Positions 24,794 through 30,507 of a stretch of DNA of 64,000 nt are shown piece after piece. A model generated the notes under the pieces. The model saw only the letters and a program-made list of their open reading frames with translations. It was not told the origin of the DNA and searched no databases. The first letter of the stretch is position 1. Each line of letters opens with the position of its first letter. This stretch comes from Syntrophorhabdaceae bacterium (lineage in GTDB: Bacteria > Desulfobacterota > Syntrophorhabdia > Syntrophorhabdales > Syntrophorhabdaceae), in contig CAXXUO010000010.1 in the NCBI GenBank assembly GCA_963666485.2, positions 1 to 64,000 of the forward strand. Direction: 5' to 3'. The position numbers and the translations under genes are program-made.

Positions 24794-26377
24794 GTGAAAA
24801 CATTCATGGACAAATTTTCAATCGGTCAAAAGGCGTTTTTTGCTCCCATTGCGGCGGCGGCGTTCTTTGTAGCTGCCGGCATTGTATCCATGGGCTCCGG
24901 ACCGGGTACGGCCTTCTTCGTCCTTCTCGGAGCAGGGATCGTTGTGACGCTGGCCACGGGTTATCTTACCGCGAGCGCCATGCGGGCCCCGTTGAAACAG
25001 CTCGAAAAATCGTTCGAGGGCCTTTCACAGGGCGACCTGACAAAGCGCATGGACGAGGCGTCCGCGGGGGAGTTCGGGGTGATGGGCAAGAACTTCAACA
25101 CCTTCGTGGACCGAGTCAGCACAGCCCTGTCAGGGGTGGCCGATTCGAGCAGCCAGATATCTTTCGCGGTCAACACCCTCGATGCCACCGCGACCCAGAT
25201 GGCAAAAGGGACCGATATCATCGTGACCGAGATCACGTCGGTGGCGACGGCGAGCGAGGAGATGTCGGCGACGGCCAACGAGATAACGAACAACTGCATC
25301 GCCGCGGCGAGGAGTTCGGAAATTGCCAACAACTCCGCGATGACCGGTGAAAACATCATCCAGGAGATCATCCGCAGCATGGGACGCATAGATGAAAGCG
25401 TCAAAGAGTCGGCGCTCATGATCCAAAAGCTCGGCGAGCGCTCCGACCAGATCGGCGAGATCGCGGGCATCATCAACGACATTGCCGAGCAGACGAACCT
25501 CCTTGCATTGAACGCCGCGATCGAGGCCGCCCGCGCCGGAGAGCACGGACGCGGGTTTGCCGTCGTAGCGGACGAGGTCCGCAAGCTGGCGGAAAGGACC
25601 ACCGGGGCGACAAAACAGATCGGTGAAACGATACAGACGATGCAGAGCGAGATGAAGAATGCCGTCGTTTCGATGGAAGGCGGCGTCAAAGAGGTGGAGG
25701 TAGGAAATAACGAAACGGCGAAGTCGGGGGATGCCCTGAAGGAGATCCTGCACCAGATCAACACCCTGGGATCGCAGATCAACCAGATCGCCGTCGCGTC
25801 GGAAGAGCAGAGCGCTACCACGAGCGAGATCAACAACAACATCCAGAAAATATCGAAGATAGTCGAGAACGCGGCGAAGAGCATCGCCGAAAACGCGGAA
25901 GCGTCATCGAATCTATCGAGCCTCTCGGTCCAGCTCACGAAGCTGGCGAACGAATTCAAGATACAGGACACCAGGTCGTCGGACCGGGCTTCGTCCACAA
26001 AGGAAGACGTTGTCACCTTCGTTGAAAAAGCTGCGGACTATCTGAAAAACTCTCGCGACAAGCAAAAGGCCTATAATGAAATGTCCGATCCGCACGGCCG
26101 TTTCGTGAAGGGTGAGCTGTATGTTTTCATCAACACCATTGAAGGGTACACGGTCGCCCACGGGCAAAACCCGAAACTTGTCGGAAAGTTCATGCTTGAC
26201 CTCAAAGATGCCGACGGCAAGCTCTTCATGCGGGAAATAACGGATATAGCGAAGGCAAAGGGAAGCGGTTGGGTCGAATACAAGTGGATGGACCCCGTCA
26301 CCAGCCGGATCATGGTGAAGATGACGTACTGTAAACGGGTGGGAGATGTTTATATTGGGTGCGGGATATATAAGTAA
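24794..26377 (+). CDS. Methyl-accepting chemotaxis protein with C-terminal Cache domain
   Basis: TM hairpin, HAMP, IAEQTNLLALNAAIEAARAGEHGRGFAVVADEVRKLAE; C-terminal GELYVF...AH..NPKLVG...DADGK...GSGWVEYKW. Confidence 0.93.
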   Translation: MKTFMDKFSIGQKAFFAPIAAAAFFVAAGIVSMGSGPGTAFFVLLGAGIVVTLATGYLTASAMRAPLKQLEKSFEGLSQGDLTKRMDEASAGEFGVMGKNFNTFVDRVSTALSGVADSSSQISFAVNTLDATATQMAKGTDIIVTEITSVATASEEMSATANEITNNCIAAARSSEIANNSAMTGENIIQEIIRSMGRIDESVKESALMIQKLGERSDQIGEIAGIINDIAEQTNLLALNAAIEAARAGEHGRGFAVVADEVRKLAERTTGATKQIGETIQTMQSEMKNAVVSMEGGVKEVEVGNNETAKSGDALKEILHQINTLGSQINQIAVASEEQSATTSEINNNIQKISKIVENAAKSIAENAEASSNLSSLSVQLTKLANEFKIQDTRSSDRASSTKEDVVTFVEKAADYLKNSRDKQKAYNEMSDPHGRFVKGELYVFINTIEGYTVAHGQNPKLVGKFMLDLKDADGKLFMREITDIAKAKGSGWVEYKWMDPVTSRIMVKMTYCKRVGDVYIGCGIYK

Positions 26378-26435: not shown

Positions 26436-26473
26436 AAACAAAAGAGCAAGCATTTCAGCTTGCTCTTTTGTTT
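26436..26473. terminator. Bidirectional hairpin between MCP and TPR-CHAT genes
   Basis: aaacaaaagagcaagc-loop-gcttgctcttttgttt. Confidence 0.6.
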
Positions 26474-26498: not shown

Positions 26499-29400
26499 CT
26501 ATTCCCCATACATGACGAACGCCGACCAGAAGAACGGGTGGTTGTATGCGCCGGGCTTTGTATCTTTAAGAAGGGACAGCTTGGCGGCGCGCAGGGCTTC
26601 GAGCTTTGTTTTTTCTTTGTGTATCAGTCCGTCATAAAAGGCGGTCATGAGGTCGCGGGTTGGCTCGTCGGCAACAGACCAGAGACTTACCAATGCTGCC
26701 GGGCTCCCGGCGTACATGACGGCGCGCGTCAGGCCGGTGACGCCCTCCGCATTGCTCAACTCCCCGAGGCCTGTCTCGCATGCGGAAAGGACCACAAGGC
26801 GCGCGTTGAAACGGGTATTCATTATTTCACCTAAGGTCAGGAAGCCGTCTTCTTTGTCGGACGGTATCTGGCTTAAGGCAATGGCCTGAAACCCCGGCTG
26901 CAGGATCCCGTGCGTCGAAAAATGTATATAGGAATACTGGGCCATGTCCGGGGATTTCGCTTTTTCCTCGCGGGCATCGATCCTCAGGTATACCTGGTGC
27001 TTCGCGCCGGTCTTTTCGTATATGGAGTGGATCGCTTCGATCTCCTCGGCCGTGCCCTTGAGGCGCGTCAGTGTTCCGCCCGACCTGAGGTATTCCGTCT
27101 TCATGAACACGGTACCCGGCGACGGGTCTCGGGGCGCTGCCATCTTCTCTTCCGCCGGCCGGCCTTCTTCGGTATTTTCCTTAGCAGCCGCATCTTTTTT
27201 GTCCACGCCGGTCTCGGCGATATATTCCTTGAAGTCATATACGGGGTCTCCGAAACCGACGAAGCCGCCCCGCGTGTTTTCCGTGCTGTGCTGGCTCCGC
27301 AGCACGCCGAGGACGGTGCCCGATTGAATATATGCCAGGGGATATTTCTCGATCATGAATATCTTCCCGCCGTCCTTCCCCGTGGTCATGAGGGCCTCGA
27401 ACGGGAGATATGCGAGGATTCCCTGCGGCACTATTATCAAAGTCTTTCCGTCAATGTATTCCTCGACCGGCTTTACAAGCATGTCGTAGAGTTCGGCTGA
27501 CAGATCATTGCGGAGGCGCTCTCCCCGCTGGATACCCCTCATATTGCCGAGCATTTTCTGCACGCGGCTGGTAAGCTCCCCGTACTGCGCCGGAAGTTTG
27601 ACGATGTTGAGCCCGTTTTTCCCGATGACAAGACACCAGACGCCTTTTTTTGCCATGAAATACTCGAGCAGGACCTCATTTTCCTTAAGGACAGTGTCCT
27701 GCAGCTTTTTCGCTAAGATCGGCTGAGGGTACTCGACAGAGGCATAAAGCGGGTTCTTGTAGCGGATGTCGCGCCTGAGGGCGTCGAGCTTTTCCTGCGC
27801 CGCGTTTGCATCGCTCCTGAGTTGTTCGATCACTTTTTTATCGGGAATCTTTGCCTGGTTCTCTTCGGCGAGGCGCCTGGTCAGCATGACGATCTGGTTC
27901 TCGAGCAGGTCACGCTCTTTTTTTACGTCAGCATCGACGCCTTTTTCGAGGTCAACGCGCGCCTCGGCAAGCTGGTCGAGGAACATCCTGGCCTTCATCG
28001 CTTCAATATACTGGAGGGCCTTTTCGGCCCGGTCCTTTTCGATCACATAGAGGGCTGCACCTTCGTAATGATCATATATTTTTTCCATGTAGCTTCTTTT
28101 CAGCTCTGAAAAAGCGGCCTGTGACCGGACCTGTTCAAATTTTGCAAGCCCGGCATCATAAAGGCGTATCGCCTCCTCGACATCATCTTTCCGGGCGGCA
28201 ACGGAGGCTTTTTTCAGAAGGACGACGCCTTGTGACTCCATGTCCTGCATCTGTCCGTAGAGACCGAGGGCCAGGTTGTAATTCTGGTCAGCCTGTTCGA
28301 AGTCACCCGCCGACAGGAAGACATCGCCTATACCCTGGTATGCATGTCCCTGGTCAACGAGCGAGTTCGCGGCAGTGACAAGGCGAAGCGCCTCCCGGAA
28401 CATGTCGAGCGCGCCCATTCTATTTCCCCTCTCCAGGTAGATCTCGCCGAGCGTCTTGTAGATGTCGCCCTGTCCGATGGGTTCACGTATCTTCTTGTAT
28501 ATGGCCATTGCAGAATTGAACATTGCGAGGGAGTGATCGATCTTTTTGAGCCTGAGATATGCCTCACCCATCGTCCGGTAGGTATTCGCCTGTCCCAGCG
28601 GGGAATTTGCTCTTGTATATAACCTCAGTGCATTCTCATAGTACTGCAAGGCCCGCGGGTAGTCCCCCGCGTAAAAATAGATATCACCGAGGGAGCGCTG
28701 GACATTGCCCTGGCCTAAAGGCTCGTTCGCGCTCACATAGAGCGGCAGGGCCCTGTCGTACATCTCCAGGGCCCGCGAAAAATTGCGGTTGTAATAGCCG
28801 ATGTCTCCTAACCCCTTGTAGATATCCGCCTGGCCCACGGGCTCTCTCGACTGGCGATAGATGGGAAGGGCGGTCTCGTATGCCTCCGACACGGCGGCCA
28901 CATTGCCTCTTCTCAGGCTGAGCTGGCCCATGCGCCGCAGCGTGTCCGCCTGTCCGAGCGGATACCCGGCCGACCTGAACATCTCGAGCGCCTTCTTGTA
29001 TGTTTCCAGCGCTTCATCGTTGTTGCCGGAAAAATAGGCAATGTCCGCGAGCCCTTTCAGGGTATAGGCCTCCCCGACGATAAAGCCGGTCTTTTTGTAG
29101 AGCGCCAGGGCGTTCTTGTAATGTTCCCGGGCATCTTCGACCTCCCCCGTCTTGAGGTCGATATCCCCGGAAGCGCGGTATACATCCGCCTCGCCGGCCT
29201 CATATGACGCGGTTTTGTACCGGGCGAGAGCCAGCTCCAGGGCGCCGCGCGCCGTCTTGTTGTCGCGCAGGCGCATGGCTGCATATGCCATGCTGCGGTA
29301 GACATGCCCTTCTTCCCGGGGCGATTTTTCCCGTGATATTATCTTGAGGGACGAATCGATAAGCTTTTGCGCCGTCGCCCCGTCACCGATCTGGCTGTGG

Positions 29401-30050
29401 ACATCGGCGATCTTTCGTTCGATGATGCCCCGGTGTATGCCCGGCTTTGTCCGCGAATATATCTCGGCCGCCCGGTTGTACATGAGCAGGGCGTTCGTCG
29501 GGCTGCCCTGGTAGAACGCCGTGTCGCCGTTTCCTTCATACGAGCCGGCTATGAGAACATCGTCCTCAGACTCGCGGGCGAGAGGCATGGTGGCTTCGTA
29601 GAGCTTGAGCGCCTCACCCGGCCGGGACGTAAAGAGGAAATAGGCGCCGGCGCGGAGCATCATCCGGGTTAATGCCTTGTCATCCTTTCTTTTGCGTGCA
29701 CCTTCGAGGACCATGTTAACCAGCACGTCATCGCGCCCCCGTATTGCGTCTTCCAGTACCTTCTCCAGAATGGGCGCATTGATCTTTTCCTCATTTTCCG
29801 CGAAGACGGTCCAGAAGCGGCCCCCTTCTTTATGCGCGCTGACAAGCGAATTCGCGATGCGCGCCTCCTCATCCCCGTCGGAGAACGTGTCGCCTGAACG
29901 GGCATAGCCGCTGATGATGAGAAAACATGACAGTACGGAAATGAGAATGAGAGATACACGTCTGAATGTGGTCATAGGGCCCGGGACCTTCTTTTTATGA
30001 TGTATTCGGTACAGCGCTGCCTTAAACCGTTGCCGGCGGCGCGTATTCAC
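26499..30050 (-). CDS. Exported TPR-repeat + CHAT (caspase-fold cysteine protease) protein
   Basis: Basic N-terminus + hydrophobic segment; about 13 40-aa TPRs (GQADIYKGLGDI...); CHAT motifs IVPQGILAYLPFEAL, IHFSTHG, LVVLSACETG, SLWSV.D, HPFFWSAF. Alternative start ATG 29975. Confidence 0.92.
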   Translation of the reverse strand: MNTRRRQRFKAALYRIHHKKKVPGPMTTFRRVSLILISVLSCFLIISGYARSGDTFSDGDEEARIANSLVSAHKEGGRFWTVFAENEEKINAPILEKVLEDAIRGRDDVLVNMVLEGARKRKDDKALTRMMLRAGAYFLFTSRPGEALKLYEATMPLARESEDDVLIAGSYEGNGDTAFYQGSPTNALLMYNRAAEIYSRTKPGIHRGIIERKIADVHSQIGDGATAQKLIDSSLKIISREKSPREEGHVYRSMAYAAMRLRDNKTARGALELALARYKTASYEAGEADVYRASGDIDLKTGEVEDAREHYKNALALYKKTGFIVGEAYTLKGLADIAYFSGNNDEALETYKKALEMFRSAGYPLGQADTLRRMGQLSLRRGNVAAVSEAYETALPIYRQSREPVGQADIYKGLGDIGYYNRNFSRALEMYDRALPLYVSANEPLGQGNVQRSLGDIYFYAGDYPRALQYYENALRLYTRANSPLGQANTYRTMGEAYLRLKKIDHSLAMFNSAMAIYKKIREPIGQGDIYKTLGEIYLERGNRMGALDMFREALRLVTAANSLVDQGHAYQGIGDVFLSAGDFEQADQNYNLALGLYGQMQDMESQGVVLLKKASVAARKDDVEEAIRLYDAGLAKFEQVRSQAAFSELKRSYMEKIYDHYEGAALYVIEKDRAEKALQYIEAMKARMFLDQLAEARVDLEKGVDADVKKERDLLENQIVMLTRRLAEENQAKIPDKKVIEQLRSDANAAQEKLDALRRDIRYKNPLYASVEYPQPILAKKLQDTVLKENEVLLEYFMAKKGVWCLVIGKNGLNIVKLPAQYGELTSRVQKMLGNMRGIQRGERLRNDLSAELYDMLVKPVEEYIDGKTLIIVPQGILAYLPFEALMTTGKDGGKIFMIEKYPLAYIQSGTVLGVLRSQHSTENTRGGFVGFGDPVYDFKEYIAETGVDKKDAAAKENTEEGRPAEEKMAAPRDPSPGTVFMKTEYLRSGGTLTRLKGTAEEIEAIHSIYEKTGAKHQVYLRIDAREEKAKSPDMAQYSYIHFSTHGILQPGFQAIALSQIPSDKEDGFLTLGEIMNTRFNARLVVLSACETGLGELSNAEGVTGLTRAVMYAGSPAALVSLWSVADEPTRDLMTAFYDGLIHKEKTKLEALRAAKLSLLKDTKPGAYNHPFFWSAFVMYGE

Positions 30051-30274
30051 CCGCTATTGCCGTACGCTGCATTTCTCCGGCCTGTAGCCGGGCGGCACAA
30101 GAACACGGTTTCAGGAAGTGCCCTCGAAAGGTTCCCGTCTATGAACGTCGGCACGGCGGGTGGATCGGGAGGGTCACGAGGCGGAGGACGTCCGGTGTCC
30201 TCGTTCGCGAGACAAACGCCAACGGATACTGCCAGTGATAACACGAGAAGCAGGATAAGAAAAAACCGTTTCAC
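30047..30274 (-). CDS. Small secreted Pro-rich peptide (75 aa, DPPDP motif)
   Basis: 23-aa signal peptide ending GVCLA; RPPPRDPPDPPAV; stop overlaps CHAT start (GTGA). Confidence 0.7.
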   Translation of the reverse strand: MKRFFLILLLVLSLAVSVGVCLANEDTGRPPPRDPPDPPAVPTFIDGNLSRALPETVFLCRPATGRRNAAYGNSG

Positions 30275-30306
30275 AATATGCTATGCCCGCACTGCCTTCC
30301 GTCCCT

Positions 30307-30435
30307 TTAATAGGGCGCGGTGATCGTTGTCCCGACCGCTTCCGGCGGTTTTGGATCCGGAGGATCGGCGAAACACATGCCAGTCACGGAAAGCATGACA
30401 ATCGCCGAAACGATGATCTTTACGACCAGTTTCAT
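30307..30435 (-). CDS. Small secreted Pro-rich peptide (42 aa, DPPDP motif)
   Basis: MKLVVKIIVSAIVMLSVTGMCFA|DPPDPKPPEAVGTTITAPY; GGGGG SD 5 nt before ATG 30435. Confidence 0.7.
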   Translation of the reverse strand: MKLVVKIIVSAIVMLSVTGMCFADPPDPKPPEAVGTTITAPY

Positions 30436-30478
30436 TACTACCCCCGTTCTGCTGCCTGTAAAACCATGCCTTGGAACA

Positions 30479-30507
30479 AGAATAGTAAAAAGGACGGGAA
30501 TTGTCAA
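30479..30507 (-). promoter_or_regulatory. Sigma70-like promoter for the peptide-peptide-CHAT operon
   Basis: TTGACA (30507-30502), 17-nt spacer, TATTCT (30484-30479). Confidence 0.55.

What the first reader, a model, noticed from the sequence alone, without database searches (positions are those of the whole stretch)
26499..30507. Candidate new system: two secreted DPPDP peptides co-transcribed with an exported TPR-CHAT caspase-fold protease
Seen on the - strand: a TTGACA-17-TATTCT promoter, a 42-aa ORF (30435-30307), a 75-aa ORF (30274-30047), then the 1183-aa TPR-CHAT gene, whose GTG overlaps the second peptide's TGA by 4 nt. Both peptides have a 23-aa signal-like leader ending G-x-C-x-A (GMCFA / GVCLA) and share a D-P-P-D-P...P-x(0-1)-A-V core (DPPDPKPPEAV vs RDPPDPPAV), so they look like paralogs. 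The protease has a hydrophobic N-terminal segment, about 13 TPRs and an intact His/Cys dyad (FSTHG, LSACETG). Established: CHAT domains are caspase-family proteases typically gated by TPR/partner binding (e.g. HetF, TPR-CHAT of Craspase, gasdermin-activating proteases). Inference: an envelope or extracellular peptide-protease module in which the Pro/Asp peptides act as activating ligands, inhibitors or substrates (signalling or peptide maturation). I know of no described system with this layout.
Basis: partly seen in the sequence, partly recalled or inferred. Interest (0 to 1): 0.85.

Follow-up and report, generated by a model that had tools for sequence, protein, structure and literature searches.

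The report
Secreted peptide-gated caspase-like envelope protease
A group of anaerobic bacteria keeps one or two tiny proline/aspartate-rich peptide genes directly in front of a large caspase-like protease, all predicted to be exported; relatives lacking the peptides also have a broken active site, so the peptides likely bind the protease and switch it, an arrangement not found in the papers searched.

Summary
Real and conserved. Both small ORFs are under purifying selection (core pN/pS 0.17 and 0.10) and sit behind a conserved sigma-70-type promoter. Peptide 2 precedes 16 of 16 orthologous protease genes in the genus, peptide 1 precedes 15 of 16. A paralogue in the same genome and relatives in Smithella/Syntrophales carry their own signal + Pro/Asp peptide: 32 of 35 assessable leaves of one TPR-CHAT clade, against 0 of 68 outside it. 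Corrections: the protease likely starts at ATG 29975, the GTG/TGA overlap is not conserved, and the 'GxCxA' leader is lineage-generic. Predicted groove residues of TPRs 6-11 are near-invariant, basic and aromatic. Both peptide-less orthologues at the same locus have lost the catalytic His and show groove decay. Best reading: the peptide docks in the TPR groove and gates an exported separase/Csx29-like protease. Activation is only slightly favoured over securin-like inhibition. Binding, expression and substrate are untested, and no sigma/anti-sigma output gene is linked. It fails RRNPP, Craspase and DdvA membership. The scan noted related peptide + exported CHAT modules, mostly with ECF sigma factors, on other DNA; this is a stand-alone form.

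The parts
30479..30507 (-). sigma-70-type promoter, TTGACA-17-TATTCT
   Evidence: -35 box and spacing kept in 15 of 15 loci aligned (9 by strict pattern, 6 with TATAAC by eye); function untested
30441..30445 (-). GGGGG ribosome-binding site of peptide 1
   Evidence: a G-run precedes the start in the peptide-1 orthologues listed
30307..30435 (-). Peptide 1 (42 aa): 23-aa predicted Sec signal, mature part starts DPPDP, short beta-like tail
   Evidence: core pN/pS 0.17, signal 0.28
30047..30274 (-). Peptide 2 (75 aa, GTG start, no clear RBS here): predicted signal, core RDPPDPP, unconserved tail (43-80 aa total in orthologues)
   Evidence: core pN/pS 0.10
26499..29975 (-). TPR-CHAT protease, 1158 aa from ATG 29975; predicted cleavable signal aa 1-25
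28119..29681 (-). 13 TPR hairpins (aa 99-619); predicted groove positions of repeats 6-11 near-invariant, Arg/Lys/aromatic
   Evidence: groove positions assigned from the recalled TPR register, not measured on the model
26502..27503 (-). CHAT catalytic domain (aa 825-1158), His1022 and Cys1066 intact
26436..26473 (.). 16-bp hairpin between the CHAT stop and the convergent chemoreceptor gene; likely bidirectional terminator

Best explanation
The two peptides and the TPR-CHAT protease form one conserved unit; all three are predicted to be exported, and the Pro/Asp core of the peptide likely docks in the basic/aromatic groove of the TPR solenoid and likely switches on the caspase-fold active site. 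Shown: conserved genes, order and promoter, purifying selection on the cores, intact dyad, co-occurrence, and joint loss of peptide, dyad and groove conservation. Inferred: co-transcription; Sec export and signal cleavage that leaves DPPDP at or near the N-terminus; groove binding (about 0.7 on its own); allosteric activation as in Csx29; cleavage of a periplasmic or membrane substrate encoded elsewhere (not identified). Peptide 2 is a genus-specific duplicate; either copy seems enough.
For: Peptide 2 before 16 of 16 and peptide 1 before 15 of 16 orthologues. 32 of 35 assessable leaves of one clade carry an upstream signal + Pro/Asp peptide, against 0 of 68 outside with >=500 bp upstream. In 339 genomes of another class, all 6 acidic-Pro peptides (5 genomes) among the hits fetched lie beside a TPR-CHAT. 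Groove positions are 0.94 conserved vs 0.73 for control positions in 12 active orthologues. Groove signature differs between peptide types and from clades without these peptides. The only dyad-broken CHAT of 110 (L055) and a second dead orthologue (L244) are the peptide-less copies at the same PhzF-flanked locus. Dead P0027 has groove 0.42 vs control 0.69. A sister clade has a different groove and a different secreted partner. Csx29 is activated through its TPR domain (PMC10028731, passages). DdvA's periplasmic TPR-CHAT rests inactive awaiting a signal (PMC11506125, discussion part 1). Family cores are diverse and one has a repeated core.
Against: The core is invariant across 17 species of the genus, unlike kin-specific pheromones. 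An activator made from the same promoter into the same compartment would be always on unless it is lost or processed. No substrate, sigma or anti-sigma gene is conserved nearby. Two active CHATs inside the wider clade (L136, L172) lack peptides; they fall outside it in the second tree. L055 and L244 are one genus and may be a single loss, and the DNA context of P0026/P0027 is unknown. Groove and peptide types are shared by kin, so this is not shown co-evolution. Joint loss fits inhibitor and substrate models equally well.
Confidence: 0.4

Rival explanations
1. Securin-like inhibitor: the protease-resistant Pro-rich peptide is made first and in excess, binds the exported protease and holds it off until the peptide is lost (envelope leak, degradation or displacement by a foreign protein).
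For: Peptide genes come first, and peptide 1 has the clearer RBS. A 16-18 bp hairpin lies between peptides and protease in 3 of 11 loci folded. The core is invariant within the genus. Peptide-less orthologues are catalytically dead. Top Foldseek hits are separase, with low TM-scores of 0.2-0.4. Securin is an extended pseudosubstrate and folding chaperone whose FP-to-RE change makes it a substrate (PMC6858450, passages and introduction). DbfQ is a precedent for an adjacent periplasmic small-protein modulator (abstract only).
Against: The characterised bacterial TPR-CHATs rest inactive without an inhibitor. The conserved surface is in the middle TPRs, far in sequence from the active site. The mature peptide 1 is only 19 aa, much shorter than securin's binding segment.
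Confidence: 0.28
2. Substrate: the CHAT matures the peptides into a signal or other product read elsewhere. Peptide 2 would be cut after (D/E)xxR to give the same DPPDPP N-terminus as peptide 1.
For: (D/E)xxR directly precedes DPPDPP in 14 of 15 aligned peptide-2 sequences, resembling separase's ExxR. Peptide loss accompanies dyad loss.
Against: The window's own peptide 2 lacks that exact spacing and L003 has K in place of R. Peptide 1 and most peptides outside the genus have no such site. L124 has only peptide 1. No receptor or modifying enzyme is linked.
Confidence: 0.15
3. Structural cofactor or folding aid, or co-regulated passengers with no direct contact: the groove binds some other ligand, such as a phage or neighbour protein.
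For: No direct binding data. Pro-rich N-termini are common in secreted proteins of this phylum. Dead full-length copies persist, so the protein has some function without peptide or catalysis.
Against: Tight linkage across variable gene neighbourhoods. Acidic-Pro peptides were not found away from CHAT genes in the genomes searched.
Confidence: 0.17

Closest known systems
DdvA-DdvS of Myxococcus xanthus (PMC11506125; abstract and discussion part 1 of 2 read)
   Same: TPR-CHAT outside the cytoplasm with a His-Cys dyad, thought to await a protein signal; structural hit
   Different: DdvA is a transmembrane anti-sigma with a cytoplasmic zinc domain and a cognate ECF sigma, and its signal is unknown. 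Here the protein has only a predicted cleavable signal, no linked sigma, and a candidate ligand encoded next door.
Csx29 / Craspase, type III-E CRISPR (PMC10028731; passages read)
   Same: TPR-gated CHAT with allosteric activation through the TPR domain; structural hits
   Different: Cytoplasmic, gated by Cas7-11 and target RNA, cleaves Csx30. No Cas or Csx30 gene is seen at these loci.
RRNPP peptide quorum sensing of Firmicutes (PMC10075063; passages read)
   Same: Adjacent Sec-exported 10-100 aa propeptide and TPR protein; peptide duplications
   Different: The receptor is intracellular, 250-500 aa and often a transcription factor. Here it is 1158 aa, predicted exported, a protease, in a Gram-negative lineage; the core follows the signal rather than ending the peptide.
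Separase-securin (PMC6858450; passages and introduction read)
   Same: Helical solenoid plus caspase-fold domain (top Foldseek hits, low TM-scores); model for a Pro-containing pseudosubstrate inhibitor
   Different: Eukaryotic and intracellular; securin is about 200 aa and is removed by APC/C. No sequence link to these peptides was tested.

Membership tests
CHAT (Pfam PF12770) / TPR-CHAT proteases | CHAT domain above cut-off with His-Cys dyad, preceded by TPRs | tested here: met
CHAT (Pfam PF12770) / TPR-CHAT proteases | Proteolytic activity | not testable with these tools
   dyad intact in 109 of 110 sequences; no assay
RRNPP | 10-100 aa Sec-exported propeptide adjacent to a TPR gene | tested here: met
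   (signal judged by heuristic); criteria from PMC10075063
RRNPP | Receptor of 250-500 aa, intracellular | tested here: not met
   1158 aa with a signal-like N-terminus kept in orthologues
RRNPP | Mature peptide binds the receptor's TPRs | not testable with these tools
   needs a binding assay
DdvA-type anti-sigma | N-terminal cytoplasmic zinc anti-sigma domain, transmembrane helix, cognate ECF sigma | tested here: not met
   N-terminus is a 25-aa leader followed by helices; no sigma gene among conserved neighbours
Type III-E Craspase | Encoded with Cas7-11, Csx30 and a CRISPR locus | tested here: not met
   neighbours are a chemoreceptor, PhzF-like, 5-oxoprolinase-like and other housekeeping genes
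RiPP precursor + TPR protein (e.g. HaaT type) | Linked modifying enzyme such as radical SAM; NCBIfam score over cut-off | tested here: not met
   HaaT 107 bits vs cut-off 1125; no radical SAM among the neighbours of peptide-bearing loci that were scanned
Separase-securin | Partner blocks the active site as a pseudosubstrate | not testable with these tools
   needs a structure or an assay

The most novel reading that the evidence does not exclude
This is the minimal form of a widespread, undescribed bacterial signalling class: an exported caspase-fold protease whose TPR groove reads a short linear code on a co-encoded secreted partner (DPPDP-type peptides here, a GVRG-ended protein in the sister clade). 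It works either as a peptide-activated protease for cell-cell or envelope sensing in Gram-negative syntrophs or as a bacterial separase-securin pair, and it would supply the kind of ligand still missing for periplasmic TPR-CHATs such as DdvA.
Probability: 0.45. Interest if true: 0.85.

Novelty: new variant of a known kind. Interest (0 to 1): 0.68.

Why it matters
TPR-CHAT proteases are common in bacteria (8 CHAT matches in this genome), but a trigger is known for very few, and the signal of the one solved periplasmic example (DdvA) is unknown. Here a 19-residue candidate ligand is encoded next to the enzyme, natural variants with different cores and matching groove types exist, and natural peptide-less dead copies give controls. 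That makes 'what gates an exported CHAT protease' testable with a synthetic peptide and one purified protein. If the peptide activates, it is peptide signalling in a Gram-negative syntroph and a possible peptide-switchable protease tool. If it inhibits, it is a bacterial parallel of securin.

Tried and rejected
Complex prediction of protease aa 197-1158 with peptide 2 aa 24-60 gave no answer (score 0.01, controls not folded). ESM Atlas search with peptide 1: no usable hit. Pfam and NCBIfam: no family for either peptide. The first tree run did not finish; FastTree was used instead. Search for an output partner: no conserved sigma, anti-sigma or CHASE2 neighbour in the genus (70 chosen neighbour proteins scanned, not all). 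The genome has 11 sigma-r2 and 4 CHASE2 matches elsewhere; none of the 4 sigma-factor regions printed shows a link. No convincing DPPDP-like motif in other long ORFs of the genome. Peptide-profile hits in 400 phylum genomes outside these loci were generic signal peptides in the 29 loci inspected. Rejected: GTG start and translational coupling; GxCxA as a system motif; lipoprotein reading (no lipobox, by eye); RiPP cluster. Ten literature searches listed no paper on a secreted peptide paired with a TPR-CHAT. The library lacks most subscription papers and no supplements were read, so a mention there cannot be excluded. Two papers opened were irrelevant.
Full report
Observation. The window is contig C10:1-64000 of a 3.77-Mb genome. 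Its closest relatives are titled Syntrophorhabdus or Syntrophorhabdaceae in the records returned. On the minus strand lie a TTGACA-17-TATTCT site, a 42-aa ORF, a 75-aa ORF and a TPR-CHAT gene. The predicted structure (pLDDT 87) has 13 TPR hairpins at aa 99-619 and a caspase-type domain; Pfam gives CHAT at aa 825-1158. Foldseek returns separase, DdvA and Csx29, with low TM-scores. The gene likely starts at ATG 29975, not GTG 30050: orthologues start there, some have a stop just upstream, and peptide 2 ends 65-146 nt earlier in the 11 loci measured. The 4-nt overlap is therefore incidental.

The peptides are real genes. 17 of 19 other genomes of the genus have the orthologue: 16 intact at 58-77% identity and one in three pieces; the two without a match are 66% and 94% complete. 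Within 900 bp upstream of the 16 intact copies, peptide 2 was found in 16 and peptide 1 in 15. Signal and core are kept while the tails vary freely. Pairwise pN/pS over 15 sequences each is 0.17 (peptide 1 core), 0.10 (peptide 2 core), 0.28 and 0.52 (signals); the sequences are related, so these are descriptive. The promoter is kept in the 15 loci aligned (9 by strict pattern, 6 with TATAAC by eye). L004 has only peptide 2 behind the same promoter and L124 has only peptide 1, so the two look redundant.

The pairing recurs. A 41%-identical paralogue on contig C4 has its own upstream peptide beginning GDDPPAP; no such peptide was seen in the regions around the other six CHAT genes. A profile of the peptides hits only these three places in the genome. 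A looser pattern finds 15 small ORFs, of which these three are the DPP type. Among loci from genome and metagenome collections (best 80 of 140 and 80 of 359 kept), 116 full-length CHATs were screened for small signal-bearing ORFs (relaxed for 33 of them) and judged by eye. On a 110-leaf tree, one clade of 36 leaves (support 0.91) has upstream Pro/Asp peptides in 32 of 35 assessable leaves; L096 lacked upstream DNA. Outside it, 0 of 68 leaves with >=500 bp upstream do; three have a Pro-rich peptide downstream (L092, L167, L097). Leaves include near-duplicates and kin. In 339 genomes of the class holding Smithella, every acidic-Pro peptide among the hits fetched (6 peptides, 5 genomes, all already known) lies beside a TPR-CHAT; the other hits are a Lys/Ala-rich family sharing only the leader. 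A profile search of 1.84 billion representatives gave 39 hits, about 25 of them short peptides of this kind with diverse cores, one with a repeated core. Their context is unknown, though two have the same longest-contig length as a CHAT homologue. Flanking genes differ between lineages; no sigma, anti-sigma, transporter or modifying enzyme is conserved.

Peptide, groove and catalysis go together. I assigned groove-facing residues from the TPR register (helix A positions 2, 5, 6, 9, 12, 13; recalled, not measured on the model). In 12 active orthologues they are 0.94 conserved over repeats 6-11, against 0.73 for control positions on helix B. They are rich in Arg, Lys, Tyr and Phe, a chemical match for an Asp/Pro peptide. 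Peptide-bearing relatives share part of this signature; clades without these peptides have other signatures. The only CHAT of 110 with a broken dyad is L055 (His to Gln), which sits at the same PhzF-flanked locus with a promoter-like site but no peptides. A second orthologue there, L244, also lacks peptides and both catalytic residues. These two are one genus and sister on the tree. P0027, nested in the genus, has lost the His and its groove has decayed more than control positions (0.42 vs 0.69); P0026 keeps the dyad with groove 0.56 vs 0.61. The DNA context of both is unknown. A sister clade has its own conserved groove and, at 18 of 35 loci checked, a roughly 185-aa secreted neighbour that ends in GVRG in the copies read in full. 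Against: L136 and L172 are active and peptide-less within the wider clade of the first tree, and groove and peptide types are inherited together, so co-evolution is not shown.

Mechanism. Most likely the operon is transcribed as one unit, all products are exported, and the peptide core binds the TPR groove and gates the active site (inferred). I favour activation slightly (0.40) because Csx29 is switched on through its TPRs (PMC10028731, passages) and DdvA rests inactive awaiting a signal (PMC11506125, discussion part 1). Securin-like inhibition (0.28) is close: peptide-first order, an invariant core, a hairpin before the protease gene in 3 of 11 loci, and the securin precedent (PMC6858450). 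A substrate role (0.15) is hinted by (D/E)xxR before the core in 14 of 15 peptide-2 sequences but fails for peptide-1-only loci. The substrate of the protease is not identified.

Comparison and novelty. It is a TPR-CHAT by domain test. It works like an RRNPP pair or a Csx29/DdvA sensor but fails defining features of each (see membership rows; RRNPP criteria from PMC10075063, passages). Ten searches found no paper on this pairing; subscription papers and supplements were not seen. Earlier unchecked notes of this scan describe peptide + exported TPR-CHAT modules in other phyla, mostly with an ECF sigma and anti-sigma; none matched this sequence. They gave me the DdvA, Csx29, RRNPP and CHASE2 leads and are not counted as support. 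Verdict: a real, unannotated, stand-alone peptide-protease module; a new variant of ligand-gated TPR-CHAT proteases; interest 0.68.

Noticed in passing
L059, L060, L061, L062, L075-L077, L079, L083, L105, L106, L126, L130, L131, L133, L151, L157, L161: A sister TPR-CHAT clade is flanked by a ~185-aa secreted protein with no Pfam hit that ends in ...GVRG in the copies read in full, with a B12-radical SAM gene next in at least L059 and L105; its predicted groove signature is distinct and conserved. The ending resembles the FecR-type self-cleavage motif (recalled, not tested).
   Followed up: partly
L055/L243 (G456), L244 (G457), proteins P0027, P0026: Full-length TPR-CHAT copies with lost or degenerate active sites persist in at least two, possibly three, lineages; P0027's groove looks retuned rather than merely drifting.
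   Followed up: partly
L044:1097-1369 (-): A 90-aa signal-bearing ORF with an FNPQPEPP motif lies just downstream of an unrelated TPR-CHAT in G012.
   Followed up: no
L092:7005-7235 (-), L167:6361-6528 (-), L097:4783-4914 (+): Pro/Asp-rich secreted peptides downstream of more distant TPR-CHATs; two are convergent, and L092 has a repeated EDPPPP core.
   Followed up: partly
L128, L082, L087, L093; G000:C1:562136-566480: Other exported TPR-CHATs lie next to CHASE2 membrane proteins and a secreted partner; L128 has both this and two upstream peptides, so CHASE2 proteins are candidate substrates.
   Followed up: partly
L038 (G002:C12:53475-56935): The orthologous protease gene is in three pieces while both peptides are intact; this may be assembly error or recent decay.
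   Followed up: no
L045/L048 (G003:C7): Peptide 1 is deleted, peptide 2's signal end has changed, and the protease shows substitutions near the active site.
   Followed up: partly
L271, L272, L275-L299; G000:C1:1096034: A widespread family of 70-100 aa secreted Lys/Ala/Glu-rich proteins shares the ...TGLCFA leader with these peptides and could be their evolutionary source.
   Followed up: no
window 24794-26377 (+): The convergent chemoreceptor has HAMP-MCP followed by a C-terminal Cache domain and is syntenic with the operon in 16 loci of the genus.
   Followed up: no
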